Origin: Flavobacteriales bacterium
GTDB lineage: Bacteria; Bacteroidota; Bacteroidia; Flavobacteriales_E; Vicingaceae
Assembly: GCA_020635825.1 (NCBI GenBank)
Contig: JACJZA010000026.1
Coordinates: 1 to 29,908, forward strand
Direction of reading: 5' to 3'
DNA: 29,908 bases
Shown: positions 2,069 to 28,645 of the stretch, piece after piece
Position numbering within the stretch: position 1 is the stretch's first letter
Layout of the letters: every line of letters begins with the position of its first letter
Translations under genes and position numbers: made by a program
The notes under the pieces: generated by a model
Seen by the model: only the letters and a program-made list of their open reading frames with translations
What the model was told of the DNA's origin: nothing
Database searches by the model: none

Positions 2069-2813
2069 TTACAGAAATTAATTCTACTTCAAAAACCAGA
2101 GGCATAAATTTTTTAATTGGTCCCTCTCCATTTTGAGGAGGATTAGAACCATAAGCCAATTGTTGAGGAATAAAGAAACGATATTTAGCTCCTTCTTTCA
2201 TTAATTGTAACCCTTCTGTCCATCCTTTTATTACTTGATTCAATCCAAAAGTAGCTGGTTTTCCTCTATTAATGGAACTGTCGAAAATAGTTCCTTCAGG
2301 GGTAGTTCCTTGGTAATGAACAGTAACACTAGATGTAGCAGTTGGAGTTTTACCTGTTCCTTCTGTCAATACAACATATTGTAAACCACTTTCGGTAACT
2401 TGTACTCCTTCTTTACTTTTATTTTCCTCTAAAAATGCCAAACCATCTTTTGCAATCTTTTCGTATTCTTTTAACTTAATGTTGTTAACCGAATCTGATT
2501 TTGCTTTAAAGAAAGCCATCACATATGGACGCATCGCATCAACATCTATGTAAGTTTTTTCATTTTCCATCCCATCTTTAATTCCCATAATAATGGCATC
2601 AATATTGGCTTCAGAAAAATCTTTTTTAAGATTTAAAGCCATGTTCATTCCCACACCATAACTTACTGAGTCGATTTTATTCTTTAAAACAATCTCAGCT
2701 TTTACTTCTTCTTTTTTAACGTTTTTCTTTTTTTGAGCAATTGCATTTACTGATAAAAACATCATTATAAATGCAAACAATAATGTTTGGATTGTTCTTT
2801 TATTCATAAGCAT
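2061..2813 (-). CDS. FKBP-type PPIase with FkpA/Mip-like N-terminal helical domain
   Basis: Signal peptide, helical N-domain and a C-terminal FKBP domain (VHYQGTTPEGTIFDSS...VIKGWTEGLQLMKEGAKYRFFIPQQLAYG). The C-terminal half closely resembles the next gene, as in a tandem duplicate. Confidence 0.92.
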   Translation of the reverse strand: MLMNKRTIQTLLFAFIMMFLSVNAIAQKKKNVKKEEVKAEIVLKNKIDSVSYGVGMNMALNLKKDFSEANIDAIIMGIKDGMENEKTYIDVDAMRPYVMAFFKAKSDSVNNIKLKEYEKIAKDGLAFLEENKSKEGVQVTESGLQYVVLTEGTGKTPTATSSVTVHYQGTTPEGTIFDSSINRGKPATFGLNQVIKGWTEGLQLMKEGAKYRFFIPQQLAYGSNPPQNGEGPIKKFMPLVFEVELISVND

Positions 2814-2816
2814 ATT

Positions 2817-3545
2817 TTACTCGTTTACTTTGATTAATTCTACTTCAAATACCAACGGCATAAATGGCTTAATTGGCCCACCCGGTCTTGGGTTAGCACC
2901 GTAAGCTAATTCTTGAGGAATAAAAAATCTATATTTTGAACCTTCACTCATTAACTGTAAACCTTCTGTCCATCCTGGTATTACTTGATTTAAATTAAAG
3001 GTAACTGTTTCACCTCTTTCAACTGAACTTTCAAAAACTGTACCATCAGGAGTTGTTCCATGATAATGTACTTCGACAGATGATTGAGGACTAGAAGGCT
3101 TTTTACCTTTCCCTTCTTTCATTACTAAATATTGTAAACCACTAGCAGTAACTTGCACTCCTTCTTTTGTTTTATTCTCTTCTAAAAACTTCTCTCCTTC
3201 AATTCTTATTTGACCGTATTGTTCTTCAGCCATTCGTTGAGCTTCTTGTTGTTGCTTTTCCATTGCTTCTTGTTGCTTCTTTTGGAAAAAAGGCTGTAAA
3301 ACACCTTCTAATTCTTCTGTAGAAATCAACATATCAGCAGAATCTAATACATCTATAAACCCTTTTACCCATGCATCTTTATTTACTTCAGAAAAATTTT
3401 GAAGTATATTGGTACCTGTATAAGCACCGTAACTATAACTTACTGAATCAATTTCATTATTTAATGTTACGTTAGCGTGTTCATTATTTCCTCCACATGC
3501 AACTAATAAAGATGCTGCACAAGCATAAAAAGTTATTTTTTTCAT
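2817..3545 (-). CDS. Lipoprotein FKBP-type PPIase with FkpA/Mip-like N-domain
   Basis: Lipobox LLVAC near the N-terminus. FKBP domain VHYHGTTPDGTVFESS...VIPGWTEGLQLMSEGSKYRFFIPQELAYG. Confidence 0.92.
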   Translation of the reverse strand: MKKITFYACAASLLVACGGNNEHANVTLNNEIDSVSYSYGAYTGTNILQNFSEVNKDAWVKGFIDVLDSADMLISTEELEGVLQPFFQKKQQEAMEKQQQEAQRMAEEQYGQIRIEGEKFLEENKTKEGVQVTASGLQYLVMKEGKGKKPSSPQSSVEVHYHGTTPDGTVFESSVERGETVTFNLNQVIPGWTEGLQLMSEGSKYRFFIPQELAYGANPRPGGPIKPFMPLVFEVELIKVNE

Positions 3546-3550
3546 TTTGT

Positions 3551-4381
3551 TTATTTAATTTTTGTTATTTCTAAATTATACATTATCGGGCTATAAGGTG
3601 GTACAATACCTGTACTCGAACCCTTATCTCCAAACGCGAGTTGCGAAGGTATGATTATTTTTGCTTTTTCACCATTTTTCATGGTTTTTAACACTTTATC
3701 AAATCCTTCTATTACCTGACCTGGAGTACCATAAACATACTCAAAATCTTGATTGGTTTTAGTAGAATCAAAAGCTACTCCATTTATAAAACTACCCAAG
3801 TATTTAAGATATACCGTATCTCCTTTTTTTATAAAATCCCCCTTCCCTTCTTGAATGGTTTTCTTTAATACATTGCCTTCATTAACAAATCCTTTATCTT
3901 CTTTGAGTATTTCCTTCAAAATAAGTTGCTCAATTAATTCCTCATCATAGTTGTTTATCTGATTTTGATATTCTTCTTCATTATAAAAACGATGAAGTTT
4001 TACTGCTATTTTTAGATATTCTGAATTATTTGACACAAAGCCCAAACTATTTGAGTTAAATATTTCTTGCCCCATTAAAAATTCAGCACTATCCCCTTCA
4101 TTTAATTGCTTAAAGAGTTCGTCAAAATCATTTTCTTTGGGCTGATATAAATGATATTTAAAAATTTGATAAATCAAATCATCTTTTTGATTGAGCACTT
4201 TTAATGAAACACTAACATAATTACCTTTTTCATATGATTTAGAAGCAGCTTCACCTTCAAATTCAAAAGATAAGAGCTTAAAATAAGTTTCATTTCCTAA
4301 ATTCTCATAACCATCAAATTTAGACTGACATGAAAATAAAAAAATTACAATGAAGAAGTAAAATATTTTTCTCAACATCAT
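3551..4381 (-). CDS. Lipoprotein with unknown N-terminal domain and C-terminal FKBP-type PPIase domain
   Basis: Lipobox LFSC. The C-terminus YLGSFINGVAFDST...VIEGFDKVLKTMKNGEKAKIIIPSQLAFGDKG is FKBP-like. It shares 1 nt (TAATG) with the upstream gene stop. Confidence 0.85.
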   Translation of the reverse strand: MMLRKIFYFFIVIFLFSCQSKFDGYENLGNETYFKLLSFEFEGEAASKSYEKGNYVSVSLKVLNQKDDLIYQIFKYHLYQPKENDFDELFKQLNEGDSAEFLMGQEIFNSNSLGFVSNNSEYLKIAVKLHRFYNEEEYQNQINNYDEELIEQLILKEILKEDKGFVNEGNVLKKTIQEGKGDFIKKGDTVYLKYLGSFINGVAFDSTKTNQDFEYVYGTPGQVIEGFDKVLKTMKNGEKAKIIIPSQLAFGDKGSSTGIVPPYSPIMYNLEITKIK

Positions 4382-4911
4382 TATTTCAATGCAATTAATT
4401 CAATATCATAAATAATGGTTGAGCGAATCGGAATTTTTTCAAAATCACCAGCCAATCCATGTGCTAAATGAGATGGAATAATTATTTTAGCTTTATCTCC
4501 CACATGTAAATAAGTAATTCCTTCGTGTAGCCCACTTTCTACATTGTCTTCTCCTATTTTAAATTCTTCAGGGCCATTTTCTTCGGTAGAATAGCATTTT
4601 TGTCCATTCAATAAAGAAACTTCGTATTTCACCACAGCTATCTTTCCATTTTCAGCTTTTTCTCCATTTCCTTTCTCATAAATTTGATAACGTAATCCTG
4701 TACCAGTTTTAATCACGTCAAGACTCCTCCTTCTCACATACCCGTCTATCTGTAATGATTCTTTTTCGGCTGCAATTTTATTAGCATCAATTAATACTTC
4801 TTTTAATTCTTCTTTTAATTCTTCAGGATTGTTATGATAAAGAGGATTAGAATCGTTTTCTGAATGACATGCTAAAAGTGAAATAATAATTATAAAATAC
4901 AGAAACCTCAT
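4381..4911 (-). CDS. Small lipoprotein FKBP-type PPIase, divergent active-site region; possibly the gliding-motility GldI type
   Basis: Lipobox LLAC. FKBP fold motifs YEVSLLNGQKCYST...VESGLHEGITYLHVGDKAKIIIPSHLAHG. Its 176-aa size and lipoprotein nature match what I recall of GldI, but orthology cannot be shown here. There is an ATGA overlap with nrnA. Confidence 0.8.
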   Translation of the reverse strand: MRFLYFIIIISLLACHSENDSNPLYHNNPEELKEELKEVLIDANKIAAEKESLQIDGYVRRRSLDVIKTGTGLRYQIYEKGNGEKAENGKIAVVKYEVSLLNGQKCYSTEENGPEEFKIGEDNVESGLHEGITYLHVGDKAKIIIPSHLAHGLAGDFEKIPIRSTIIYDIELIALK

Positions 4912-16068: not shown

Positions 16069-17808
16069 CTATTGCTTCACAATTTTCTGAATTTTCACAA
16101 AGTATTCCGTTCTAACTTCAATAAAATAAACTCCTTTTGGCACATCTAATTTTAGTTCACAAAGAGATGAGTTAAAATAACTTTTTGATTGAATAACATT
16201 TCCTTTAACATCTAATAATTTCAATTCAACCGTTTCATAATTTTTTTCTAATTCTATTTTTACATTATCTAAAAAAGGATTTGGATAAACTTTAGTGTTC
16301 AAAACTTGATTAATACCATCCTTCACACCAACTGATTCATCTGTACTTAAACACAATACTAGAGGTTGCCAGACTAATTCAGAAGGAAAATGAATATCAA
16401 TATCGTTACTTGGATTTAAATCAACAGTATCTGCTATGGCTCCAACTAAATATAAGTTACCATTTACACCAGCACTAAAAGAAAAAAAGGATTCACGATT
16501 ATTATTGGGTTCAAACCAACCTCCTACCCATAGAAAATTTCCATTAGAATCTAATTGTTGTATAAACGAATCGTAAGAATTTGGGCCAGAAGTTAAGTTA
16601 ACAACACCTGGTCCTGGGTCAAAATCAACTGTTTCTCTAAATTCTCCAACCACTATTGTATTACCATTTTCATCAAAAATTACTAAATCAGGATCTTGAG
16701 GAAAATTGGAGCTGTCTTTATAAGTTGCATGCCATTTATAAACTCCAGCACTATCATATTTAACGACAAAACCATCTCTATTCACTGATGTTGTATTGAT
16801 ATAAACCGGCGGATTATTTAACCCAATATTCGTTGACTCATAAAACTCACCAACAATTGAAATGTTGTTCATTTCATCAATTGCCATATCATTAAAATCA
16901 ACTATATTGAAACTTACCATAGAACCAGCCCAAATTAATTCTCCGTTTGGTGTATATTTTTGAATACATAAATTTCTCATTTCGGGATCAGGTGTTATAA
17001 GATTATAAACTCCTGCACTTGGATCTACATCAACTGTATCCCTAAAATATCCCGAAACATACATGTTATCATCCGAATCTACTTTAACCGCTCTAAATAA
17101 GTTAGCAGCACCCTCTTTTCCTTGTTTATGATGCCATAGATAATTACCATCAGAATCATATTTTGCTACATAGGTATCTTGAATACCTAAACAATTAATC
17201 ATAACTGAAGACGCTCCGGGATCAACATCCATATTACCTTTAAAACCTCCTACTATATAAAAATCCCCACTACTATTAACAGCAATATCATCTGCTCCTA
17301 AAAAAGATACAACATCACTTTCAAATACTTTACCCCATAAATAAGCACCATTCGAATCTAATTTTACAACAAATACATTGTTTTCTTCTATCGATATAAC
17401 ATCATCTGTGCCTATTCCCGGGTTTAAATCTATGTTATAATCATAGGCACCTAAAATGTAAACGTTATTATCAACAGATACTTCAATAGTTATACTTTGA
17501 CAAAAACCTGAGTTATTAACAGTTTCAAAATCCTCTCCCCAAATAAAATCTCCCTCAGAAGTATATTTTGCTATAAATATAGCTCCATCTATATTAGTAA
17601 AATTTGCAATTCCCGGACCCGGGTCTAAATCTATGGTTCCTAAATAATCACCAATCACATAAAAGTTCCCTGATTTGTCTGTTGCAATATCTACAATATA
17701 ACCACCATTATTATCAACATCTAATGATTTAGCCCAGCTATAATTAGGCAATTGAGCATGTATGTTTAAGCTCAAACATAAAACAAAGAAAAATAAAAAG
17801 TATCTCAT
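16069..17808 (-). CDS. Secreted beta-propeller repeat (SBBP-like) protein with T9SS type A C-terminal sorting domain
   Basis: Signal peptide, then about 6 or more repeats ending in D(L/V)(D/N)PG-type motifs (TIDLDPGPG, NIDLNPGIG, NMDVDPGAS, TVDVDPSAG, TVDFDPGPG, TVDLNPSND). The C-terminus KVYPNPFLDNVKIEL...GVYFIEV is typical of T9SS cargo. Confidence 0.85.
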   Translation of the reverse strand: MRYFLFFFVLCLSLNIHAQLPNYSWAKSLDVDNNGGYIVDIATDKSGNFYVIGDYLGTIDLDPGPGIANFTNIDGAIFIAKYTSEGDFIWGEDFETVNNSGFCQSITIEVSVDNNVYILGAYDYNIDLNPGIGTDDVISIEENNVFVVKLDSNGAYLWGKVFESDVVSFLGADDIAVNSSGDFYIVGGFKGNMDVDPGASSVMINCLGIQDTYVAKYDSDGNYLWHHKQGKEGAANLFRAVKVDSDDNMYVSGYFRDTVDVDPSAGVYNLITPDPEMRNLCIQKYTPNGELIWAGSMVSFNIVDFNDMAIDEMNNISIVGEFYESTNIGLNNPPVYINTTSVNRDGFVVKYDSAGVYKWHATYKDSSNFPQDPDLVIFDENGNTIVVGEFRETVDFDPGPGVVNLTSGPNSYDSFIQQLDSNGNFLWVGGWFEPNNNRESFFSFSAGVNGNLYLVGAIADTVDLNPSNDIDIHFPSELVWQPLVLCLSTDESVGVKDGINQVLNTKVYPNPFLDNVKIELEKNYETVELKLLDVKGNVIQSKSYFNSSLCELKLDVPKGVYFIEVRTEYFVKIQKIVKQ

Positions 17809-17841
17809 CTTATTTTATTAACTAATAGTGCAATCTCTTAC

Positions 17842-17872
17842 CAAAGATAGTTATTAGTTAATCATTAACAAA
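17842..17872 (-). promoter_or_regulatory. Bacteroidota sigma-A promoter (-33 TTTG / -7 TATCTTTG) of the T9SS cargo gene
   Basis: The minus strand reads TTTG-19 nt-TATCTTTG, with 33 nt to the ATG at 17808. Both boxes and the spacing fit the published consensus TTTG/TAnnTTTG. Confidence 0.6.
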
Positions 17873-17875
17873 GTA

Positions 17876-17906
17876 TTGACTTTATCCTTTAAAAACGCTA
17901 ACTTCG
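17876..17906 (+). repeat. Left arm of 31-bp imperfect inverted repeat
   Basis: ttgactttatc-ctttaaaaa-cgctaacttcg. 27/31 positions are identical, ungapped, to the reverse complement of 18137-18167. Confidence 0.85.
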
Positions 17907-18136
17907 TTTGACACTTTATGTAAGTGCAATTAAAAAAGCACCAACACAGACGTTATGAGTAATTACTAGGCTACAAGAGGCAATCAAGCTATATTTTTGA
18001 GTGATGGTAGGTTATTTTAAGCAAGTGCGTTTTAGGATAAATAAAGTGGATAAACTCCTCTTTATTAAGTCTGGCGGTAATACCGTAGAGAAGTTTCACT
18101 TATCAGACGAGTAGTATCGTCTCACAGACTTACAGT

Positions 18137-18167
18137 CGAAGTTAGCGATTTTTAATGACAAAGTCAA
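18137..18167 (-). repeat. Right arm of 31-bp imperfect inverted repeat
   Basis: The plus strand reads cgaagttagcg-atttttaat-gacaaagtcaa. The match comprises an 11/11 block, a 6/9 spacer and a 10/11 block. The arms enclose 230 bp. Confidence 0.85.
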
Positions 18168-18357
18168 GTATTTAGCTAACTTAAAAAAGACTAAAACACT
18201 TTTAACTTGGTTAAAATAGACTACTTATTTTTTTTTCATCACTCACTCATTTTTAACGCTACATACACAGGGTTTATATTTCATAAAAAATGATAAAAAT
18301 ATAGGTTTGATGACCTTGTTGTTTTTTGCTGTAGTCTAGCAACTAGTAGAGCTTTAC

Positions 18358-18391
18358 CTTCTTTAATTGAAAAGAAAATTGATTAAAGAAG
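18358..18391. other. Perfect 10-bp stem-loop (cttctttaat / attaaagaag, 14-nt loop)
   Basis: Read directly from the sequence. It lies in the ORF-free gap upstream of the ydeI-like gene. Confidence 0.7.
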
Positions 18392-18395
18392 TAGA

Positions 18396-18444
18396 TTAAC
18401 TCCTTTGATAGAATACTGATTATTTTCGGAGTTAAATAAACTCC
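18396..18444. other. Mutually exclusive pairings: ttaactcc (18396-18403) or aactcc (18439-18444) with ggagttaa (18428-18435)
   Basis: There is an 8-bp helix with a 24-nt loop versus a 6-bp helix with a 5-nt loop, and both use the same GGAGTT segment. Neither is followed by a U-tract. Confidence 0.5.
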
Positions 18445-18498
18445 TCATAACATCTTATAAATTCAATTTTATCAAAAGAATCTTTAACTTTAGTCCCA

Positions 18499-18554
18499 TT
18501 AAGATAAAGTCAGCTTCTTTTATTAAAACTACGCTAACGCTGAATTTATCTTAA
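18499..18554. other. Interrupted stem-loop or operator-like palindrome just upstream of the ydeI-like ATG
   Basis: ttaagataaa-gt-cagc (18499-18514) pairs with gctg-aa-tttatcttaa (18539-18554). That gives 10 bp, a 2x2 internal loop and 4 bp, with a 24-nt apical loop, ending 34 nt before the ATG. Confidence 0.6.
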
Positions 18555-18588
18555 CGTCAAACGAAAATCATTAACTTCACTTCTAAAA

Positions 18589-19239
18589 ATGAGACACCAA
18601 ATAGACGAATATTATAACCAAGCACCTTTTTGGCAAAAAGAAATGCAAGTATTAAGAAGTTTGGCCTTAGGTTGTAGTTTAAGTGAAGAATTTAAATGGA
18701 AACAAGCTTGTTATACTTTTCAGAACAAAAACATATTTATCATCAGTGCTTTTAAAAATTATTGTGCGCTCAACTTTTTTAAAGGTGCTTTACTAAGCGA
18801 CACTGAAAACATTTTAATCAAAGCAGGCGAAAACTCACAAGCGGGTCGTCAACTACGCTTTACTTCTGTAAAAGAGATTGTGGAAAATGAAGCCATTATC
18901 AAAGCATACATTTTTGAAGCCATAGAAATAGAAAAAGCCGGGCTTGAAATTAACTACAAAAAAACCGCTGAATTTGATGTTCCCGAAGAGTTACAAGAAT
19001 TTTTTAGCAAAGACAAAAAATTTGAAAAAGCCTTTAAGAGTTTAACTCCAGGTAGACAAAGAGGTTATTTGTTGTTTTTCGCTGCTGCCAAACAATCGAA
19101 AACCAAAAACGAAAGAATCGAAAAATATGTGGGTAGAATTATGAATGGAAAAGGAATTCATGATTGTGTTTGTGGGTTATCCAAGAAAATGCCCAATTGT
19201 GATGGTTCACATAAGCAACTAAAAGAAAATCAGAAATAA
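18589..19239 (+). CDS. DUF1801/YdeI-OmpD-associated family protein fused to a C-terminal CDGSH iron-sulfur motif
   Basis: The body resembles YdeI-type proteins (LTPGRQRGYLLFF, ERIEKYVGRIMNGKG). The last 30 aa carry CVCGLSKKMPNCDGSHK, which is the CxC...S...PxCDGSH signature. Confidence 0.75.
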   Translation: MRHQIDEYYNQAPFWQKEMQVLRSLALGCSLSEEFKWKQACYTFQNKNIFIISAFKNYCALNFFKGALLSDTENILIKAGENSQAGRQLRFTSVKEIVENEAIIKAYIFEAIEIEKAGLEINYKKTAEFDVPEELQEFFSKDKKFEKAFKSLTPGRQRGYLLFFAAAKQSKTKNERIEKYVGRIMNGKGIHDCVCGLSKKMPNCDGSHKQLKENQK

Positions 19240-20129
19240 ATTGCTTTAAATTCGGTTGTCCCATTGCTGTTTATTTCCAACGCAGGGAAAGGAAACTTAA
19301 TAAACCCAAAAGCACCCAAAAGAGTATTAGCGAACTTGCTCTTGGTTTTTATTCGGGTTAAATCCACATCCAACGAAAGATAAAACTGGCGAGTTCGTGG
19401 TGTAGCACTGTAATCAAAAGTTGTTCCGTCTTTTTCAAATACATTATCGTGTCCTCCATACATTCCATCGGCACCATAACCCACTGCAAAATTCAACCAT
19501 TTAGGGAATTTTGTTTCATCCCCTAAAAAAGAAGCGATATTTGCACTCAGCCAATAAGTTTGTCCATTGTAATCTTTTAGCAATTGTTCGTTTAAATTGC
19601 TTCCTAATAAGTTGGGACGAACAGATGGGTAATCAGTGGTATGAAAAGAATATTTGAGCAAAACCCGTTGTTCGTGCCAAGCCAATTGCTGACCAATAAA
19701 TAAAGCCGAACCGGTTGTATTGGCTATCATATCTCCGGTAGAAAAACCCCAATCGGCAGAGTAAGCATCAAACATTTCTACCGAGCTCAACAAAAACAAA
19801 CCCAATGTTCCTCCATACCAAGTTGATTTTTTTTCATTCACTCCACTCCATCTCAATACTTCATAACCGGCTTTTCCCACATAATAAGAAGTCATGGTGT
19901 GCCCCATTTTATCCATTTGCAACCACTCGTTGTTGTCGTTAAAAAAGTGAAAAGAACTTTTTGGAACGCCTTTATACCACAATTGGTTTAACCCTACCAT
20001 CGTGGCAGTATACATTCCGGCTTCAACAGCAACAACTGTTGTTAATCTTTTTTTATTGAGCGTATCGAGTTGGGAGAAACAAGGTTTAGAATGAAAAAAA
20101 CAGCATAATAATAATACCACTATCTTCAT
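19230..20129 (-). CDS. DUF2279-like exported protein
   Basis: I prefer the start at M32 (cat at 20127-20129). It gives the signal-like MKIVVLLLCCFFHSKPCFSQ. The 31 aa added in the ORF track are just a translation of the GC-rich repeat at 20162-20195. The family name is recalled from FHFFNDNNEWLQMDKMGH. Confidence 0.7.
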   Translation of the reverse strand: MKIVVLLLCCFFHSKPCFSQLDTLNKKRLTTVVAVEAGMYTATMVGLNQLWYKGVPKSSFHFFNDNNEWLQMDKMGHTMTSYYVGKAGYEVLRWSGVNEKKSTWYGGTLGLFLLSSVEMFDAYSADWGFSTGDMIANTTGSALFIGQQLAWHEQRVLLKYSFHTTDYPSVRPNLLGSNLNEQLLKDYNGQTYWLSANIASFLGDETKFPKWLNFAVGYGADGMYGGHDNVFEKDGTTFDYSATPRTRQFYLSLDVDLTRIKTKSKFANTLLGAFGFIKFPFPALEINSNGTTEFKAIYF

Positions 20130-20161: not shown

Positions 20162-20195
20162 CTCCCCCTTTATAAAAGGGGGTTGGGGGGATTTT
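20162..20195 (+). repeat. GC-rich three-arm element, copy C (C-arm/loop/G-arm/spacer/G-arm)
   Basis: ctCCCCCtttataaaaGGGGGttGGGGGGatttt. The stem is cccccttt/aaaggggg. It encodes the last 7 codons (NPPNPLL) of the DUF559 ORF. Confidence 0.85.
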
Positions 20196-20553
20196 GCTCT
20201 TTATTATCAATCCACAATTCAATTGTTCTTAAAACATTATTTAATTCAGTTTTTACTTCTTTATCGTCAAATCTAAGAAAAATCAAACCGTAACTTTCTA
20301 ATTCGCTTTGTCTTTTTAAATCTTCTTCATATTTGTAATGGTGACTATCTCCATCAATTTCTATTACTAGATTTAAAGGCTTACAATAAAAGTCAACAAT
20401 ATAATTTAATAATGGCTTTTGCCGATTGAATGTATAACCTTTCATTTGTTTTGCTCGCAAAGATTTCCATAATATTATCTCAGAAAGTGTTGAGTCATTT
20501 CGTAGTTTCCGAGAAAATTCTTTAAGATTTTTGTTATAAGGAATGTGTTTCAT
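20170..20553 (-). CDS. DUF559 (Vsr-like endonuclease fold) domain protein
   Basis: Core LNLVIEIDGDSHHY and GLIFLRFDDKEV are typical of DUF559. The 127-aa ORF is bracketed within 5 nt by the GC-rich elements. Confidence 0.85.
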   Translation of the reverse strand: MKHIPYNKNLKEFSRKLRNDSTLSEIILWKSLRAKQMKGYTFNRQKPLLNYIVDFYCKPLNLVIEIDGDSHHYKYEEDLKRQSELESYGLIFLRFDDKEVKTELNNVLRTIELWIDNKEQNPPNPLL

Positions 20554-20556
20554 TTT

Positions 20557-20589
20557 AATCCCCCTCAGTCCCCCTTAATAAGGGGGATT
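20557..20589 (-). repeat. GC-rich three-arm element, copy D (inverted relative to copy C)
   Basis: aatCCCCCTcagTCCCCCttaataaGGGGGAtt. It contains the perfect 19-bp palindrome tcccccttaataaggggga, starts 4 nt upstream of the DUF559 ATG and ends 1 nt before the OmpA-like stop. Confidence 0.85.
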
Positions 20590-20590
20590 G

Positions 20591-22546
20591 CTAATTTGCA
20601 ATCACCTTAAATTCTGTACGACGATTTTCTGCTCTACCTTCCTCTGTATCGTTAGAAGCAATTGGTTGAGCATCGCCATAACCTTTAGTGGTTAAACGGT
20701 CAGTAGGAACTCCATTTTGAGTAAGGTAATTATAAACGGCTTTAGCACGATTCTCAGAAAGCAATTGATTCGATTTTTTATCACCTACATTATCAGTATG
20801 TCCACTTAACTCAATTTTTAAATTAGGATTAGCCTTTAAAAAAGCAATTAACTTATCTAATTCCACTTTCGACTGAGGTTTTAAATCGTATTTAGCGGTT
20901 TCGAAAAATACATTTTTTAGCACCACACTCTCACCCACTTTTATTTTGTTCATTCCTACGTGTTTTTCAAAAGGCTTATCAATTGTTCCTGAACTCAAAG
21001 TGAAATTTTCAGAATGGAATAAATATCCTGGATGAGAAACGTTTAAAGCATAATCTTGATGAACAGGTAAGCAAACTAAATATTTTCCTGTTACTTCATC
21101 AGCATAAGATTGAACAGCTACTTCTCCAGTTTTTAAATTAATTAATTCAAAACGAGCTGGTAACACTTCTTTGGTTTCTGCATCAAAAACTTTACCTGCT
21201 AAATATGTTACTTTATTGGGTTTCATGTTTTCAGGTAATTCAAAAGCATATAAATCTAAATCACCCATTCCACCCTCTCTATTACTGGCAAAATAGGCAA
21301 GATTACCAGCAGCATCAACTAACAAACTGTTTTCATCATTAAAAGTATTTATTGGATAGCCTAAATTAACAGGAGTCGTCCAATTTCCATTAGCATCTTT
21401 GGTACTCATAAAAATATCTAAACCACCCATACCCGGATGACCATCTGATGAAAAATAAAGGGTTTGATTATCTGGATGTATAAAAACCGATTCCTCTCTA
21501 CCTTCAGTATTAATTACATCACTCAACCTAGTAGGAACAGACCAAACACCACCTTCACTCAACTCACTGGTCCATATATCTTGTTGTTTTACTCCACTTC
21601 TACTTCTCATGCCTCTTACAAAGTACAAAGTTTTTCCATCAGAAGAAAAGGAAGGTTGGCTTTCCCAATGTTGGGAATTAATTGGCCTATTTAAGTTTTT
21701 AGGAGCAGTCCATTTTCCACCAATATTATAGGCATAAAACAAATCACAACTTCCAAAGCCTTTTCTATCAGGTCCATAGCCTTCATAAGGATCTTCACAA
21801 CTTGTAAAAATGATGAATTGTCCATTTGGAGAAATGGTTGGTGCTCCTTCGTTATTAATACTATTTATTCCTTGCATATTTTGAGCTTCCATCCAATTGT
21901 AACCATCATTAATACTTAAATAAAAGTCTTCATTATAGCCTGTATATGTTTTTTTAGAATCCAATCTTCTGGTAAACAACAAATATTTACCATCAGCCGA
22001 AAGAGCAGGAAAATATTCTGGTAATTCAGTATTAACTCCTGCTCCCAAATTAACTGGGTTAAACGGTACAGGATGTTTTAAAGCTTCGATGGCAAACTCA
22101 CAATCTTTCAATCCCTTTTCAGCAAAAGGTTTCATCATTAAAGGTGAATCCGTAAATTTTAAATAATTGATAAAATTAGTTTGAGCTTTTTCATACTCTC
22201 CTTTATTCAACAATAACATACCTAATGAAGCATGAGCATCAGGGAAAAGATCACTCTTTATGGCAATAGATTTCTGATAATGTTCTATGGCTTTGTCATA
22301 ATCAGGTTTTTCGGTATAAACATAAGCCAGTAACAATTCTGCTTCAGCAAAATTGGGGTCTTTTTCTAATGCCTGAATAAAAGTAATTTCTGCCAATTCG
22401 TTATTACGCATATCGTAATGATTTTTGCCTTCTTCGTAAAGCTTAATGGCTTTTTTATTGTTGCTTGTATAATTTTTTTCTTGTGCTTTACAGGAAATAA
22501 AAGCCACCATAAAAGAAAAGACAAAAAGAAAATGTGAAATGCGCAT
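20591..22546 (-). CDS. OmpA-family protein with N-terminal TPR repeats and TolB/PD40-like beta-propeller repeats
   Basis: Lipobox-like AFISC, and TPR-like repeats in aa 30-150. The C-terminal OmpA domain carries LSGHTDNVGD...NQLLSENRAKAV...GRAENRRTEFKV. Confidence 0.88.
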   Translation of the reverse strand: MRISHFLFVFSFMVAFISCKAQEKNYTSNNKKAIKLYEEGKNHYDMRNNELAEITFIQALEKDPNFAEAELLLAYVYTEKPDYDKAIEHYQKSIAIKSDLFPDAHASLGMLLLNKGEYEKAQTNFINYLKFTDSPLMMKPFAEKGLKDCEFAIEALKHPVPFNPVNLGAGVNTELPEYFPALSADGKYLLFTRRLDSKKTYTGYNEDFYLSINDGYNWMEAQNMQGINSINNEGAPTISPNGQFIIFTSCEDPYEGYGPDRKGFGSCDLFYAYNIGGKWTAPKNLNRPINSQHWESQPSFSSDGKTLYFVRGMRSRSGVKQQDIWTSELSEGGVWSVPTRLSDVINTEGREESVFIHPDNQTLYFSSDGHPGMGGLDIFMSTKDANGNWTTPVNLGYPINTFNDENSLLVDAAGNLAYFASNREGGMGDLDLYAFELPENMKPNKVTYLAGKVFDAETKEVLPARFELINLKTGEVAVQSYADEVTGKYLVCLPVHQDYALNVSHPGYLFHSENFTLSSGTIDKPFEKHVGMNKIKVGESVVLKNVFFETAKYDLKPQSKVELDKLIAFLKANPNLKIELSGHTDNVGDKKSNQLLSENRAKAVYNYLTQNGVPTDRLTTKGYGDAQPIASNDTEEGRAENRRTEFKVIAN

Positions 22547-26275: not shown

Positions 26276-26860
26276 TTAATTGTTTAATGATGCTATTTCT
26301 AATTCTTTTAAATATTCTTTTAATTGTTTCATTGGTTTTGTAATTGCTACTCTTCCTGAGCGAACAAACTCCAAAATACCATAGGGATTTAATTCATCGA
26401 ACAACAGCTGCGTTTCTTCCTTATGTCCTGTTTTTTCAATAATGGTAAACTCTTTTTCAAATGCTAATATTCGCGCATTATGAGACCTAATAATTCGCTC
26501 TACCGCTCCATCCGAAACGATTAAAGTAGATGGTAATTTATAAAGTGCTATTTCCTGAAAAACCAGTTCATCATTGGTGTGATAAAATGCACCAACAACA
26601 TCCACTTGTTTTTCGAGTTGTTTCACAACTTTTTTAACCAATTCTTCATCCTCAGAAATTACAATAGTGTATCGATGTATCCCTTTTACTTCGCTTTCTG
26701 AAGCTGCAATACTTTCTATATTTATATGCCTTCTGGTAAAGATTATACTTACTCTGTTTAGCAAACCTATTTGGTCTTCCGTAAAAACGGATATGGTATA
26801 TTGGCCCCTCCTAACCTCCCCAAAGGGGAGGGATTTTACACTACTATTATTTTCTTTCAT
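26276..26860 (-). CDS. ilvN: Acetolactate synthase small (regulatory) subunit; N-terminal extension encoded by a repeat element
   Basis: ACT domain YTISVFTEDQIGLLNRVSIIFTRRHINIESI. The only ATG upstream of it is at 26860, so residues SLPFGEVRRG are a translation of repeat copy A. Confidence 0.88.
   Translation of the reverse strand: MKENNSSVKSLPFGEVRRGQYTISVFTEDQIGLLNRVSIIFTRRHINIESIAASESEVKGIHRYTIVISEDEELVKKVVKQLEKQVDVVGAFYHTNDELVFQEIALYKLPSTLIVSDGAVERIIRSHNARILAFEKEFTIIEKTGHKEETQLLFDELNPYGILEFVRSGRVAITKPMKQLKEYLKELEIASLNN
26805..26832 (-). repeat. GC-rich three-arm element, copy A, inside the ilvN 5' coding region
   Basis: CCCCTCCtaaCCTCCCCaaaGGGGAGGg. It has a 7-bp stem cctcccc/ggggagg plus a mirror-image extra arm cccctcc. 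Confidence 0.85.
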
Positions 26861-26888
26861 TGTATTAAATTTTAGTCATTACTTAATT

Positions 26889-26915
26889 CTCCCCCTTTGG
26901 GGGAGTTAGAGGGGG
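26889..26915 (+). repeat. GC-rich three-arm element, copy B, between ilvB stop and ilvN start
   Basis: CTCCCCCtttGGGGGAGttaGAGGGGG. It has a 7-bp stem plus a mirror-image extra arm, is inverted relative to copy A, and ends 2 nt before the ilvB stop codon (26918-26920). Confidence 0.85.
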
Positions 26916-26917
26916 CT

Positions 26918-28645
26918 TTATTCCAACCTTATATCCGACACCGAACAACCTGTTGGAACCATAGGAAAAACATTGTTTTCTTTCCCAACCATTACTTCTA
27001 ATAAGTAAGAACCTTTATGTTCTATCATTTCTTTAATCGCATCGTTTAACAATTCTCTTTCTTTAATTTGTTTGGACGCAATTCCATAACCTTTTGCTAT
27101 GGTTTGAAAATCTGGATTTACCATTTCTGTAGCAGAATATCTTTTATCAAAAAACAAATCTTGCCACTGACGAACCATCCCTAAAAATTGATTGTTTAGT
27201 AATAATATTTTAACTTCCACTTTTGTTTGAAAAATAGTTCCCAACTCTTGAATTGTCATTTGAAAACCACCATCACCCACAACGGCAATTACTTGTTTTT
27301 TGGGCATTCCCATTTTTGCTCCTATTGCAGCTGGTAGACAGAACCCCATTGTTCCCAAACCTCCGGAAGTTATCATGCTTTTAGACTGTTGAAATTCGGC
27401 ATATCTACACGCTATCATCTGGTGTTGTCCTACATCGGTAACTACTATTGCTTTTCCTTCTGTATGTGTATTTACCCTTCGCATTACTTCTCCCATTGTT
27501 AATTCTCCAGACTTTGGATTTGTTTCGGCATTTATCACTTTAGACAATTCAACATCCCTAAGCCTGTAAAACTCATTCAACCAATTGGCATGATTATTTT
27601 CTTTTAGCAATGGAAGTAATAATGATAAAGATTCTTTACAATCTCCTAATACAGCGACATCTGTATTTACGTTTTTATCTATTTCTGCAGGATCTATTTC
27701 GAAATGAACAACCTTTGCCTGCTTGGCATATTTTTCTAAATTTCCAGTTACTCTGTCATCAAAACGCATTCCTACAGCAATTAACACATCACACTGATTG
27801 GTTAATACATTTGGAGCATAATTTCCATGCATTCCTAACATTCCTACATTTAAATCATGATTGGTGGGTAACGCACTCGATCCCATTATCGTCCATGCTG
27901 AAGGCAAACCTGCTTTTTCTATTACGGTTTTAAATTCTTCTTCAGCCCGAGCTAATATCACTCCTTGGCCAAAAACTACCAAAGGTTTTTTTGCTTGATT
28001 GATAAGCTCGGCAGCTTCTTTCAACTTATCTTTATTGATGATTGGTTTAGCTACATAACTTCTTACTTGCTGGCATTTTTCATATTCAAATTCAAACTCA
28101 CCAAATTGTGCATCTTTGGTAATATCTACTAGAACAGGACCCGGTCTACCGCTTTGTGCAACATAAAATGCTTTTGCTATAGCTGCAGGTATATCTTCTG
28201 CTTTTGTTACTTGACAATTCCACTTAGTAACAGGCATTGATATGCCGACCACATCCGTTTCCTGAAACGCATCCGTACCCAACAAATGAGAATGAACCTG
28301 ACCTGTTATACATACTAAAGGAGTTGAATCTATTTGAGCATCTGCAATTCCAGTAATCAGGTTAGTTGCTCCCGGCCCAGAAGTAGCTAAACAAACTCCT
28401 ACTCTACCTGAAGAACGAGCATATCCCTGAGCTGCATGTATAGCTCCCTGTTCATGTCTTGTTAGTATATGTTTTACTTCATTTTGATAATCATACAAAG
28501 CATCATAAACGGGCATTATGGCACCACCTGGATAGCCAAAAATGATATCCACTCCTTCTTCTACTAAACATTTGACAACTGCCTCTGAACCAGTAACCAT
28601 TGTTGTTCTATTCAAATCAAACTCTTGTATTTTTGTTAATTCCAT
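26918..28645 (-). CDS. ilvB: Acetolactate synthase large (catalytic) subunit
   Basis: ThDP-binding motif VVGDGGFQMTIQELGT...NN and N-terminal GYPGGAIMPVYDAL. Length is 575 aa. Confidence 0.95.
   Translation of the reverse strand: MELTKIQEFDLNRTTMVTGSEAVVKCLVEEGVDIIFGYPGGAIMPVYDALYDYQNEVKHILTRHEQGAIHAAQGYARSSGRVGVCLATSGPGATNLITGIADAQIDSTPLVCITGQVHSHLLGTDAFQETDVVGISMPVTKWNCQVTKAEDIPAAIAKAFYVAQSGRPGPVLVDITKDAQFGEFEFEYEKCQQVRSYVAKPIINKDKLKEAAELINQAKKPLVVFGQGVILARAEEEFKTVIEKAGLPSAWTIMGSSALPTNHDLNVGMLGMHGNYAPNVLTNQCDVLIAVGMRFDDRVTGNLEKYAKQAKVVHFEIDPAEIDKNVNTDVAVLGDCKESLSLLLPLLKENNHANWLNEFYRLRDVELSKVINAETNPKSGELTMGEVMRRVNTHTEGKAIVVTDVGQHQMIACRYAEFQQSKSMITSGGLGTMGFCLPAAIGAKMGMPKKQVIAVVGDGGFQMTIQELGTIFQTKVEVKILLLNNQFLGMVRQWQDLFFDKRYSATEMVNPDFQTIAKGYGIASKQIKERELLNDAIKEMIEHKGSYLLEVMVGKENNVFPMVPTGCSVSDIRLE

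What the first reader, a model, noticed from the sequence alone, without database searches (positions are those of the whole stretch)
20162..20589. DUF559 nuclease gene bracketed by inverted GC-rich palindromic elements: REP/RAYT-like arrangement with a different nuclease
A 127-aa DUF559 (Vsr-like endonuclease fold) ORF fills the spacer between the OmpA-like stop (20591) and the DUF2279-like start (20129). It is flanked by two about 33-nt GC-rich elements in inverted orientation. Copy D starts 4 nt upstream of its ATG, and copy C supplies its last 7 codons and stop. In this AT-rich DNA these G5-6/C5-6 palindromes are conspicuous, and two more copies lie 6 kb away at the ilvB/ilvN junction. A nuclease gene flanked by inverted copies of a dispersed palindromic element is the known layout of REP-associated tyrosine transposases (RAYTs) and their REPs. 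Here the enclosed protein has an unrelated nuclease fold. My inference is that DUF559 may mobilise, maintain or be carried by this repeat family as a 428-bp cassette.
Basis: partly seen in the sequence, partly recalled or inferred. Interest (0 to 1): 0.7.

Follow-up and report, generated by a model that had tools for sequence, protein, structure and literature searches.

The report
Nuclease gene framed by triplex-motif repeats
A small DNA-cutting enzyme gene of unknown role (DUF559) sits between inverted copies of a GC-rich repeat that belongs to the long-orphaned bacterial 'BoxC / intrastrand triplex motif' class, and the same pairing recurs from Flavobacteria to cyanobacteria and E. coli, which suggests this enzyme maintains or spreads those repeats.

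Summary
ORF 20170-20553 (-) is an intact 127-aa DUF559/Vsr-fold nuclease, bracketed by inverted ~32-nt GC-rich elements. A second pair lies at the ilvB/ilvN junction.

The elements are not REPs. They fit the BoxC / PIT / TMECO intrastrand-triplex-motif grammar: C-arm, loop, G-arm, 3-nt linker (usually TTA), then a mirror-image G-arm.

- **The pairing is general.** In 80 genomic DUF559 loci the proximal elements take the same inverted arrangement in 34 loci and the opposite one in 2. Motif density is about 40-fold higher next to the gene.
- **Control.** In 367 kb of control loci, the only four such motifs flank the only two DUF559 genes.
- **Co-segregation.** Motif variant follows protein clade in 52 of 56 cases.
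- **Empty sites.** Orthologous OmpA/DUF2279 junctions without the gene also lack the motifs.
- **Recent mobility.** The 113-nt ilv doublet is missing from a relative that is 98% identical, and is near-identical in one whose flanks are only 76% identical.
- **E. coli.** ycjD is single-copy and adjoins a TMECO. ycjD-bearing phylogroups carry 19-30 TMECOs, and B2 strains carry 0-2.

Best reading: a RAYT/REPIN-like partnership built on a different nuclease fold. I found no paper that reports this link. No biochemistry exists yet.

The parts
20170..20553 (-). DUF559 (Vsr-fold, PD-(D/E)XK-like) nuclease gene, 127 aa, intact
   Evidence: Pfam PF04480 at E 6.9e-32. D54, E65, D67 and H71 are invariant in 23 homologues. 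PDB 3HRL matches at E 3e-25 and the I-Bth0305I catalytic domain at E 0.003. The AF2 model has pLDDT 87. Foldseek gives TM 0.87 to 3HRL, 0.77 to I-Bth0305I and about 0.5 to Vsr.
20557..20589 (-). Upstream arm, read in gene sense: hairpin TCCCCC-TTATTAA-GGGGGA, linker CTG, mirror block AGGGGGATT. It ends 3 nt before the ATG. It has triplex-motif grammar, with the hairpin outermost.
   Evidence: (I20). 8 contiguous triads. As single-stranded DNA the hairpin folds at -8.0 kcal/mol, with an alternative pairing to the second G block.
20162..20193 (-). Downstream arm, read in gene sense: C block AATCCCCCC, linker AA, hairpin CCCCC-TTTTATAAA-GGGGG. It is the reverse complement of the upstream arm type. 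It encodes the C-terminal NPPNPLL and the stop codon.
   Evidence: The hairpin followed by AGTTTTATGT also scores as terminator-like. The same NPPxPL(xKGE) tails appear in many homologues.
26804..26916 (.). 113-nt gene-less doublet of the same motif class. The arms are 26804-26835 and 26885-26916 with a 49-nt spacer, and the C and G blocks are outermost. It sits between the ilvB stop (26918-26920) and ilvN. It supplies a new ilvN ATG (26860) and an N-terminal extension.
   Evidence: (I10). As single-stranded DNA it folds at -21.4 kcal/mol, z -3.9. It is absent from L185, whose flanks are 98.2% identical. It shows 4 differences in 114 columns against L186, whose flanks are 76-81% identical.
20591..22546 (-). 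Upstream neighbour: TPR/PD40/OmpA-domain protein (context; defines the insertion site)
   Evidence: The orthologous junction is seen both occupied and empty in other loci.
19230..20129 (-). Downstream neighbour: DUF2279 lipoprotein (context; defines the insertion site)

Best explanation
The DUF559 protein is the cognate nuclease of a family of short GC-rich repeats of the intrastrand-triplex-motif class (BoxC/PIT/TMECO). The two form a nuclease-plus-repeat partnership that behaves like RAYT/REPIN but uses a Vsr-fold hydrolytic endonuclease.

**Shown:**
- The gene lies between inverted copies of the motif.
- Motif variant and protein clade co-segregate across phyla.
- Gene and arms are present or absent together at an orthologous site.
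- Gene-less doublets of the motif insert at gene junctions and differ between near-identical strains.
- In E. coli the single DUF559 gene, ycjD, adjoins a TMECO, and ycjD-bearing phylogroups carry many more TMECOs.

**Inferred:**
- The small nuclease recognises the motif, either folded as a hairpin or triplex on transiently single-stranded DNA or as duplex. The conserved linker (TTA then G) and the mirror G blocks would be the specificity determinants.
- It nicks at or beside the motif.
- Repair of that nick by copying from another motif copy homogenises the arms and occasionally copies the motif, or the nuclease gene lying between two motifs, into new intergenic sites.
- The local genomic instability reported around TMECOs would be a by-product.
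For: **Association and orientation**
- The strict finder gives 136 tailed motifs within about 200 nt of 80 DUF559 genes and 47 in the remaining ~530 kb of the same loci, roughly a 40-fold difference in density.
- The proximal pair is hairpin-then-G-block upstream and C-block-then-hairpin downstream in 34 loci, and the reverse in 2.
- The best upstream-versus-downstream inverted-repeat score is at least 15 in 41 of 74 loci, against 0 of 126 displaced controls.

**Independent control**
- 80 loci chosen by DUF2279 (367 kb) hold only 4 tailed motifs. All four flank the only two DUF559 genes present.

**Co-evolution**
- The nearest protein neighbour has the same motif variant in 52 of 56 cases, with none of 2000 label permutations reaching that count.
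- Variants cut across host taxonomy. Cyclobacteriaceae, Chitinophagaceae and Ignavibacteria each host two types.
- The same grammar is seen at 31-45% protein identity in cyanobacterial, Deinococcus, Azospirillum and Neisseria records and on IMG/VR contigs.

**Presence and absence**
- The OmpA/DUF2279 junction is occupied in the window, L001-L004, L087-L089 and L093. L086 shows the same OmpA-then-DUF559 order, but its contig ends before any DUF2279 gene. The junction is empty, with neither gene nor motif, in L090-L092 and L094.
- Cassettes 75-76% identical sit in other contexts.

**Recent mobility of the gene-less doublet:**

**Motif class:** the mirror/triad rule holds for at least 7 positions in 133 of 184 elements, against 0.7% of shuffled tails. 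The linker is TTA or TTTA in 71 of 181.

**E. coli**
- ycjD is single-copy and present in 3378 of 5426 complete genomes.
- A TMECO lies about 170 nt downstream, and a degenerate C block overlaps the stop codon.
- The element has a median of 18 places per genome.
- Genomes that hold the ycjD-linked copy have 14-28 places. Most others have 1-4.
- Holder et al. count 19-30 in A/B1 strains and 0-2 in B2 strains. ycjD is confined to phylogroups A, B1 and C plus two sequence types.

**Fold:**
Against: - No binding or cleavage data exist for any small DUF559 protein.
- The E. coli correlation is confounded by phylogeny. Lineages said to lack ycjD still keep 6-15 TMECOs (phylogroups D, E, F; O157 has 13 places). 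Persistence therefore does not require the gene.
- In this window the arms around the gene (tail GGGGGATT) differ from those of the ilv doublet (tail GAGGGGGC). A cognate relation within this genome is not shown.
- With my strict finder, 9 of 80 loci show no motif on either side and about 20 show one on a single side.
- Polarity is not universal. Deinococcus has the C and G blocks outermost, and Neisseria has direct copies.
- Vsr-fold enzymes are hydrolytic nickases with no known strand-transfer activity, so any mobilisation must go through host repair or replication.
- PIT elements showed no promoter, terminator or in vivo polymerase-blocking effect, and a stable triplex was not detected in vivo (Holder et al.).
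Confidence: 0.6

Rival explanations
1. Autonomous selfish cassette. The 428-bp unit (arm, gene, arm) is itself a minimal transposon or free-standing homing-endonuclease gene. Its terminal inverted repeats are the motifs. The gene-less pairs are MITE-like deletion derivatives that it mobilises.
For: - Gene and arms are gained or lost together at the OmpA/DUF2279 site.
- Related cassettes occur in unrelated contexts.
- Whole cassettes are duplicated in tandem in L080 and L075.
- Arms are identical over 30-33 nt in several loci: L049, L057, L059, L070.
- E. coli inverted TMECO pairs have the cassette polarity with a 16-nt spacer.
- The nearest solved relative with a known function is a homing endonuclease.
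Against: - The gene-less doublet shown to be mobile in this lineage has the opposite polarity, with C and G blocks outermost.
- The gene stays at the same locus in genomes whose neighbours are only 64-78% identical. It is single-copy in E. coli, Neisseria and most records. That pattern suggests vertical inheritance rather than frequent jumping.
- No target-site duplication is visible.
- No strand-transfer chemistry is known for this fold.
Confidence: 0.2
2. Host repair or guardian function. DUF559 is a structure- or mismatch-specific nickase, Vsr-like, that processes hairpin or triplex structures or T:G mismatches arising in these motifs. It co-evolves with them but does not spread them. Motifs cluster near the gene for other reasons.
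For: - The fold is Vsr-like.
- A Caulobacter DUF559 protein is held responsible for the DNA-damage response seen at unmethylated YGCCGGCR sites.
- Differences between the two arms of a locus concentrate as C/T changes in the linker (CTA, TTA, CCA) followed by GG. This resembles the CTWGG substrate of Vsr (Vsr specificity from established knowledge).
- The DUF559 gene is better conserved than its neighbours: 88% against 73-78%.
Against: - It does not explain why motif copies bracket the gene in a fixed inverted arrangement.
- It does not explain why gene and arms come and go together.
- No methyltransferase gene is adjacent in the window.
Confidence: 0.12
3. RNA or expression-level role only. 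The hairpins are terminators, mRNA stabilisers or insulators around a potentially toxic nuclease gene. The inverted symmetry simply reflects a terminator on each side.
For: The downstream hairpin followed by a T-rich tract scores as terminator-like. REP-type hairpins are known to stabilise upstream mRNA (established knowledge).
Against: - The third G block and its mirror symmetry are conserved, which a terminator does not need.
- The upstream arm has no T tract.
- The purine-motif triplex does not form in RNA, and PIT elements showed no terminator or promoter activity (Holder et al.).
- No Rfam family matches.
- The doublet at ilvB/ilvN lies inside an operon and is read through by translation.
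Confidence: 0.05
4. Invertible switch. The inverted arms are recombination sites that flip the nuclease gene (phase variation).
For: 'DUF559 domain-containing protein' is enriched (odds ratio 14.3) among predicted programmed-inversion targets in a bacteria-wide screen (PMC9881135).
Against: - No recombinase gene is nearby.
- The arms in the window are only 74% complementary over 31 nt.
- The screen's signal is expected from any gene overlapped by inverted repeats.
Confidence: 0.03

Closest known systems
BoxC / PIT elements / TMECO intrastrand triplex motifs (Bergler 1992 and Bachellier 1999 from memory; Hoyne & Maher 2000 and Holder et al. 2015, PMC4666352)
   Same: - Three-block grammar: C-arm, loop, G-arm, 3-nt linker (TTA type), mirror G-arm.
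- Intergenic location, tens of copies, frequent inverted pairs, strain-to-strain presence and absence.
- All four window elements obey the triad rule.
- The E. coli TMECO next to ycjD has the same layout.
   Different: - The window's arms are shorter (5-8 nt against 9 nt) and sit in 32% G+C DNA from Bacteroidota, a phylum that paper did not highlight for G/C-rich motifs.
- That literature reports no associated mobility or nuclease gene. Here the motifs bracket a nuclease gene.
RAYT / REP-REPIN systems
   Same: - A nuclease gene flanked by inverted copies of a short structured repeat that is also dispersed as singlets and inverted doublets.
- Often single-copy and held at one locus over long divergence.
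- The repeat variant co-varies with the protein clade.
- Doublets insert between genes.
   Different: - The protein is a Vsr-fold metal-dependent hydrolase, not an HUH-Y1 transposase.
- The repeat has three blocks with mirror symmetry and lacks the GTAG or CGTC tag.
- Family sizes appear smaller in Bacteroidota.
- The chemistry cannot be the covalent single-strand transfer used by Y1 enzymes.
EDxHD / Vsr-like homing endonucleases (I-Bth0305I, PDB 3R3P)
   Same: Same catalytic fold. A selfish, mobile lifestyle is documented for that branch (PMC3239194, listed).
   Different: I-Bth0305I sits in a group I intron, has an added DNA-binding region and has a long unique target. The window protein is the bare ~120-aa domain, free-standing, intergenic and flanked by repeats.
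Vsr very-short-patch repair endonuclease
   Same: Related fold. A small nickase that recognises a short sequence containing a distortion.
   Different: Foldseek similarity is weak (TM about 0.5). No partner cytosine methyltransferase is adjacent. Vsr genes are not known to be bracketed by repeats.
MITEs and IS200/IS605-type hairpin-ended elements
   Same: Short structured ends, no visible target-site duplication, gene-less derivatives.
   Different: No DDE or HUH transposase. The ends are inverted, whereas IS200/IS605 ends are not.

Membership tests
DUF559 (PF04480) / Vsr-like PD-(D/E)XK nucleases | Significant match to the family profile over its full length | tested here: met
   E 6.9e-32, 110 bits against a cut-off of 20.6, profile positions 2-105 of 109. 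NCBIfam PRK09767 (YcjD) matches at E 2.8e-19 but falls below its equivalog cut-off.
DUF559 (PF04480) / Vsr-like PD-(D/E)XK nucleases | Vsr-type fold with conserved acidic and histidine active-site residues | tested here: met
   AF2 model pLDDT 87. Foldseek TM 0.87 to 3HRL, 0.77 to I-Bth0305I, about 0.5 to Vsr. D54, E65, D67 and H71 are invariant. Catalysis itself was not tested.
BoxC / PIT / TMECO intrastrand triplex motifs | C block, loop, G block, short loop, second G block that mirrors the first (purine-motif triads G*G:C and A/T*A:T) | tested here: met
   All four window elements have 7-8 contiguous triads with a 3-nt linker. 133 of 184 elements in related loci have at least 7, against 0.7% of shuffled tails.
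BoxC / PIT / TMECO intrastrand triplex motifs | Match to the published TMECO consensus CCCTCNCCC-N3-6-GGGNGAGGG-N3-GGGNGAGGG | tested here: not met
   The window arms are CCCCC/GGGGG or CTCCCCC/GGGGGAG. They are the same class but a different sequence family. The E. coli ycjD-linked copy does match.
BoxC / PIT / TMECO intrastrand triplex motifs | The DNA actually folds into a triplex | not testable with these tools
   ViennaRNA models hairpins only. In vitro triplex formation was shown for TMECO by CD and NMR. A stable triplex was not detected in vivo.
BoxC / PIT / TMECO intrastrand triplex motifs | Multiple dispersed copies, inverted pairs, variable between strains | tested here: met
   Four copies in 30 kb. 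The doublet is polymorphic between relatives that are 98% identical. Dispersed copies occur in related loci.
RAYT / REPIN | HUH-Y1 (IS200/IS605 TnpA-like) transposase | tested here: not met
   The protein is DUF559. Its only other Pfam hit is MTES_1575, a restriction-endonuclease-type family, and that hit is below the gathering threshold.
RAYT / REPIN | Nuclease gene flanked by inverted copies of the repeat that it is associated with genome-wide | tested here: met
   (layout and co-variation only).
RAYT / REPIN | REP hairpin with a conserved 5' GTAG or CGTC tag | tested here: not met
   The conserved flanking motif is a 3' linker, TTA or TTTA, followed by a G run.
Homing endonuclease genes (EDxHD family) | Located in an intron or intein, or splitting a conserved target so that empty alleles carry the intact recognition site | tested here: inconclusive
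   No intron or intein is present. Empty OmpA/DUF2279 sites exist but are too diverged (64-67% aa identity in DUF2279) to reconstruct a target.
Insertion sequences / MITEs | Terminal inverted repeats with target-site duplication and multiple identical copies per genome | tested here: inconclusive
   Inverted arms are present. No target-site duplication is seen. Copy number is 1 per replicon in most records, with occasional tandem duplicates.

The most novel reading that the evidence does not exclude
Small DUF559 nucleases are the missing partner enzymes of bacterial intrastrand-triplex-motif repeats (BoxC/PIT/TMECO and their relatives in cyanobacteria, Neisseria and Bacteroidota). A Vsr-fold hydrolase would recognise a folded three-block DNA motif and, through nick-induced repair, propagate and homogenise the motif family and its own gene. 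This would be a second, mechanistically independent invention of the RAYT/REPIN lifestyle. It would also explain the TM-associated genome instability reported in E. coli.
Probability: 0.45. Interest if true: 0.9.

Novelty: new variant of a known kind. Interest (0 to 1): 0.8.

Why it matters
BoxC/PIT/TMECO repeats have been known since the early 1990s. They were shown to fold into triplexes in vitro and linked to genome instability, but their origin, spread and function remained unexplained. The 2015 survey stated that no mobility function was found near them.

DUF559 is a very large family with no assigned role: 19,433 clusters at 50% identity reach E 0.001 or better. It includes E. coli YcjD.

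A specific, phylum-spanning link between the two gives each a testable function. It would add a second nuclease fold to the short list of enzymes that live with their own repeat families. It also places the question in E. coli K-12, where ycjD mutants and 23 mapped TMECO loci are already available.

There is a practical consequence too. Many odd proline/glycine-rich C-terminal tails and N-terminal extensions in annotated proteins (NPPNPL, SLPFGEVRRG) are translations of these motifs.

Tried and rejected
- **Rfam.** No family reaches gathering score in the window or in 17 related loci. Only chance-level hits appear at E up to 10 around the cassette. My recollection that the 'Pedo-repair' motif might be this element was not borne out.
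- **Defence-system libraries.** PADLOC gives only marginal hits to nuclease domains. I rejected a defence-island reading.
- **Promoter scan.** Not informative. It found 6 sites against 4 expected, and Bacteroidota promoters are not covered.
- **G run as a Shine-Dalgarno.** Rejected, because its distance to the ATG varies between loci (hairpin end 15-148 nt upstream).
- **Target-site duplications around identical-arm cassettes.** None seen.
- **Literature.** Searches for DUF559, PF04480, YcjD, EDxHD, Vsr-like with inverted repeats, REPIN/RAYT with Bacteroidetes, and TMECO found no paper linking DUF559 to these repeats. The library covers open-access papers only, so prior description elsewhere cannot be excluded.
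- **E. coli per-genome cross-tabulation of ycjD against TMECO count.** This could not be done directly, because only 60 rows are listed per search. I used the ranking split and published counts instead.
- **One failed call.** I replaced it with a script.
Full report
**1. What is in the window**

The ORF at 20170-20553 on the minus strand encodes 127 aa. It matches Pfam DUF559 over almost the whole profile (E 6.9e-32). It lies between a TPR/PD40/OmpA-domain gene (20591-22546) and a DUF2279 gene (19230-20129), both on the same strand.

Read in the sense of the gene, the upstream flank is TCCCCC-TTATTAA-GGGGGA-CTG-AGGGGGATT. It ends 3 nt before the ATG. The downstream flank is AATCCCCCC-AA-CCCCC-TTTTATAAA-GGGGG. 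It encodes the last seven residues and the stop.

The repeat finder reports the two arms as 31 nt and 74% complementary. It reports a second pair at 26804-26835 and 26885-26916. That pair lies between the acetolactate synthase large- and small-subunit genes.

C5-N3-12-G5 occurs three times in this 32% G+C window. It never occurs in 100 shuffles.

**2. What the protein is**

- A profile of 23 homologues finds PDB 3HRL, an uncharacterised 'endonuclease-like protein' of Neisseria gonorrhoeae, at E 3e-25.
- It also finds the catalytic domain of the homing endonuclease I-Bth0305I at E 0.003.
- An AlphaFold model (pLDDT 87) superposes on 3HRL (TM 0.87) and on I-Bth0305I (0.77). It superposes more loosely on Vsr and on the nuclease domains of PvuRts1I and AbaSI.
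- D54, E65, D67 and H71 are invariant among the homologues.

The gene looks intact and constrained. In the orthologous locus L089 it is 88% identical to the window protein. The flanking OmpA-like and DUF2279 proteins are only 78% and 73% identical.

The family is very large: 19,433 clusters at 50% identity reach E 0.001 or better.

**3. The arrangement is general**

A scan of one genome per species returned 595 relatives, of which I examined the best 80. By eye, most show a GC hairpin plus a G-rich tail upstream and the reverse complement downstream.

I then used a deliberately strict finder. It requires a perfect CCCC...GGGG hairpin with a G or C run within 12 nt.

- It gives 136 tailed elements within about 200 nt of the genes.
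- It gives 47 in the remaining ~530 kb of the same loci.
- The proximal pair has the window's polarity in 34 loci and the opposite polarity in 2.
- The best inverted-repeat score between the two flanks is at least 15 in 41 of 74 loci. Among 126 equally spaced control window pairs from the same loci, none reaches 15 and the maximum is 13.

An independent control came from 80 metagenome loci selected through the DUF2279 neighbour (367 kb). They contain four tailed elements in all. These four flank the only two DUF559 genes in the set.

Homologues at 31-45% identity show the same grammar with other sequences. These come from IMG/VR contigs and from cyanobacterial, Deinococcus, Azospirillum, Neisseria and E. 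coli records. Polarity is not always the same, however. Deinococcus has a 56-nt inverted repeat with the C and G blocks outermost, and Neisseria has direct copies.

**4. Protein and motif co-vary**

Four sequence variants of the element can be typed in 56 of the 80 loci:

- tails GGGGGATT;
- tails GGGGTGGGT;
- tails GGGGTGTGT;
- the Flavobacteriaceae form GTCCCC...GGGGAC-TTTA-GGGGTGT.

The nearest typed protein neighbour carries the same variant in 52 of 56 cases. No permutation out of 2000 reached this. Variants cross host taxonomy, since Cyclobacteriaceae, Chitinophagaceae and Ignavibacteria each carry two types. Vertical co-inheritance alone therefore does not explain the match.

In several loci the two arms are identical over 30-33 nt, loops included (L049, L057, L059, L070). 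Loops differ between loci.

**5. Presence and absence**

The OmpA/DUF2279 junction carries the cassette in the window, in L001-L004, L087-L089 and L093. L086 shows the same OmpA-then-DUF559 order, but its contig ends before any DUF2279 gene. The DUF559 proteins in these loci are 73-100% identical to the window protein.

L090, L091, L092 and L094 are at a similar divergence, with DUF2279 64-67% identical. They have the two genes adjacent, with a 20-200-nt spacer that contains neither the gene nor any such element.

Cassettes 75-76% identical to the window's lie next to a Wzi-like gene (L084) and between GldN/sulfatase genes (L085). Both arms are present in each.

L080 holds two identical cassettes in tandem. 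L075 holds two that are 87% identical, 2 kb apart.

**6. The gene-less doublet is recently mobile**

Most ilvN homologues are 176-179 aa. The window's ORF has a 16-19-aa N-terminal extension, MKENNSSVKSLPFGEVRRGQ, that is translated from the spacer and one arm of the doublet.

- **L185.** This contig is 98.2% and 98.1% identical to the window over 2083 and 1603 nt on the two sides. The alignment breaks exactly at the 113-nt doublet. L185 has about 10 nt there, including the native ATG (MKTQ...) that nearly abuts the ilvB stop.
- **L186.** Its flanks are only 76-81% identical, yet it has the doublet at the same place with 4 differences in 114 columns.
- **L188.** It lacks the doublet there but has a related one at the ilvD/ilvB junction.

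The doublet therefore moves, or is exchanged, on a time scale much shorter than the divergence of the host genes. It can land inside operons while preserving expression.

**7. What the elements are**

The grammar is C-arm, loop, G-arm, 3-nt linker, second G-arm. This is the grammar of the repeats described in E. coli as BoxC, then as PIT elements (potential intrastrand triplex), and in 2015 as TM/TMECO (PMC4666352).

The published pattern is CCCTCNCCC-N3-6-GGGNGAGGG-N3-GGGNGAGGG. K-12 has 23 copies, a TTA or CCG linker and five inverted pairs. High numbers of G/C-rich motifs are reported in cyanobacteria and Neisseria.

I tested the defining feature directly. The tail should mirror the G-arm under purine-motif triad rules.

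- At least 7 contiguous triads occur in 133 of 184 elements, against 0.7% of shuffled tails.
- Only 24 elements reach 7 if the tail is read as a direct rather than a mirror repeat.
- All four window elements give 7-8 triads with a 3-nt linker.
- The linker is TTA or TTTA in 71 of 181 elements.

The elements thus belong to this class, though not to the E. coli sequence family. No Rfam family covers them.

The 2015 authors wrote that they never found transposase or integrase remnants near TMECOs. The paper's main text mentions neither an endonuclease nor ycjD.

**8. E. coli as a cross-check**

- ycjD, the E. coli DUF559 gene, ends in ...SPSP*, encoded by TCACCCTCTCCCTGA. A canonical TMECO (CCCTCGCCCCTCTGGGGAGAGGGTTAGGGTGAGGGG) lies about 170 nt further downstream. 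A partial duplicate of the ycjD 3' end sits in between.
- ycjD is single-copy and present in 3378 of 5426 complete genomes.
- A recent study places ycjD in phylogroups A, B1 and C plus ST69 and ST182. In the other groups eefRABCD occupies the same sapF-fabI site (PMC12817139).
- The 56-nt element occurs 1-31 times per genome, median 18.
- In a sample spread over the ranking, genomes that hold the ycjD-linked copy have 14-28 places. Most of the rest have 1-4, with exceptions: O157 has 13, and a few have 7-22.
- Published counts agree: 19-30 in A/B1 strains, 0-2 in B2, and 6-15 in D, E and F. The phylogroup assignments of those strains are from my own knowledge.

This fits a dependence of the repeat family on the gene. 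It is confounded by phylogeny, however, and gene-less lineages do retain copies.

**9. Mechanism, and how sure**

The association, its polarity, the co-variation and the mobility of the repeats are shown. What the protein does to the repeats is inferred.

I commit to a RAYT/REPIN-like partnership (confidence 0.6). In this reading the nuclease recognises the motif through the linker and the mirrored G blocks, probably when the DNA is transiently single-stranded and folded. It nicks there. Host repair then copies sequence between motif copies, which keeps arms alike and occasionally seeds new copies or carries the gene with them.

The rivals, in order of weight:

- an autonomous cassette with MITE-like derivatives (0.2);
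- a Vsr-like repair role on structures or mismatches formed by the motif (0.12);
- expression-level hairpins (0.05);
- an invertible switch (0.03).

A bacteria-wide screen listed DUF559 genes as enriched among predicted inversion targets. I read that as an independent, uninterpreted trace of the same inverted repeats.

**10. Novelty**

Each half is known. The repeat class has been known since the 1990s, and the protein family is a named domain of unknown function. The RAYT/REPIN precedent shows that nuclease-plus-repeat partnerships exist.

The link between these two, and the use of a Vsr-fold hydrolase with a three-block triplex-type motif, was not found in any paper I could search. I therefore file it as a new variant of a known kind. 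Interest is high, because it turns two old unknowns into one experiment that can be done in E. coli K-12.

Noticed in passing
window 26804-26916 and 26276-26860 (-): The triplex-motif doublet has replaced the native ilvN start. The ORF now begins at an ATG inside the doublet spacer (26860) and reads through one arm. This gives an N-terminal extension, MKENNSSVKSLPFGEVRRGQ, that is absent from a relative with 99% identical ilvN (P0271, MKTQ...). Similar extensions occur in P0272, P0273 and P0280.
   Followed up: yes
L188 1199-1305: A relative that lacks the ilvB/ilvN doublet has a related doublet (75% identical over 113 nt) at the ilvD/ilvB junction of the same operon.
   Followed up: partly
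Arms of L006, L007, L010, L026, L028, L037, L042, L044, L051, L063, L077: Where the two arms of one locus differ, the differences concentrate in the linker as C/T changes (CTA/TTA/CCA/CA/TA, followed by GG). This resembles the CTWGG/CCWGG series that Vsr acts on. If the arms ever pair, these positions would form T:G or C:A mismatches. Unexplained.
   Followed up: no
L060, L070, L075, L080 (e.g. L080 3330-3400 and 3910-3985): In several Flavobacteriaceae the hairpin of the arm is interrupted by the same ~50-nt insert (GGATTATTGAAATGAAAATATATTTTCATT...ACCGAGCAAAGCTCA), which has its own AT-rich hairpin. It is a nested small element or a variant arm form.
   Followed up: no
L169 (E. coli K-12 NC_000913.3 about 1351240-1351410): Between the ycjD stop and the downstream TMECO there is a ~45-nt partial duplicate of the 3' end of ycjD (GAGACGGTGCTGGAGAATATTC...), followed by a degenerate GGGTTAGGGG tail. 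The sapF-fabI site alternates between ycjD plus TMECO and the eefRABCD operon in different phylogroups.
   Followed up: partly
L087 / L088 (P0031): In one lineage the orthologous DUF559 ORF is cut short by a TAG where relatives have Trp (TIET*IENNK). This may be early decay of the gene while the arms persist.
   Followed up: no
L086 3750-4000: Upstream of the orthologous DUF559 gene, a ~100-nt segment that includes the arm is duplicated in tandem.
   Followed up: no
window 17809-18588: A 780-nt stretch has no ORF of 80 aa or more. It contains a 31-nt inverted repeat, 87% complementary, with arms at 17876-17906 and 18137-18167, 230 nt apart. No Rfam family reaches gathering score anywhere in the window.
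   Followed up: no
window 1265-4911: A run of adjacent minus-strand genes shares an 88-nt repeat in five copies (63-78% identical to the reference copy). The first two match FKBP-type peptidyl-prolyl isomerase domains; the others were not scanned against Pfam. It looks like a tandem paralogue array.
   Followed up: partly
window 16069-17808 (-): A 579-aa protein with a Por/T9SS C-terminal sorting domain has internal DNA repeats whose copies lie about 200 or about 400 nt apart (start-to-start spacings 198-204 and 402-405 nt).
   Followed up: no
Proteins P0019, P0021, P0053, P0060, P0084, P0112 and others: C-terminal tails such as NPPNPLSKGE, PPTPFPRGRGAE and TPGPSQEGRN...PPAPLKRGE in annotated DUF559 proteins are read-through translations of one or several triplex motifs. 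Many longer 'fusion' hits in the representative search may be the same artefact.
   Followed up: partly
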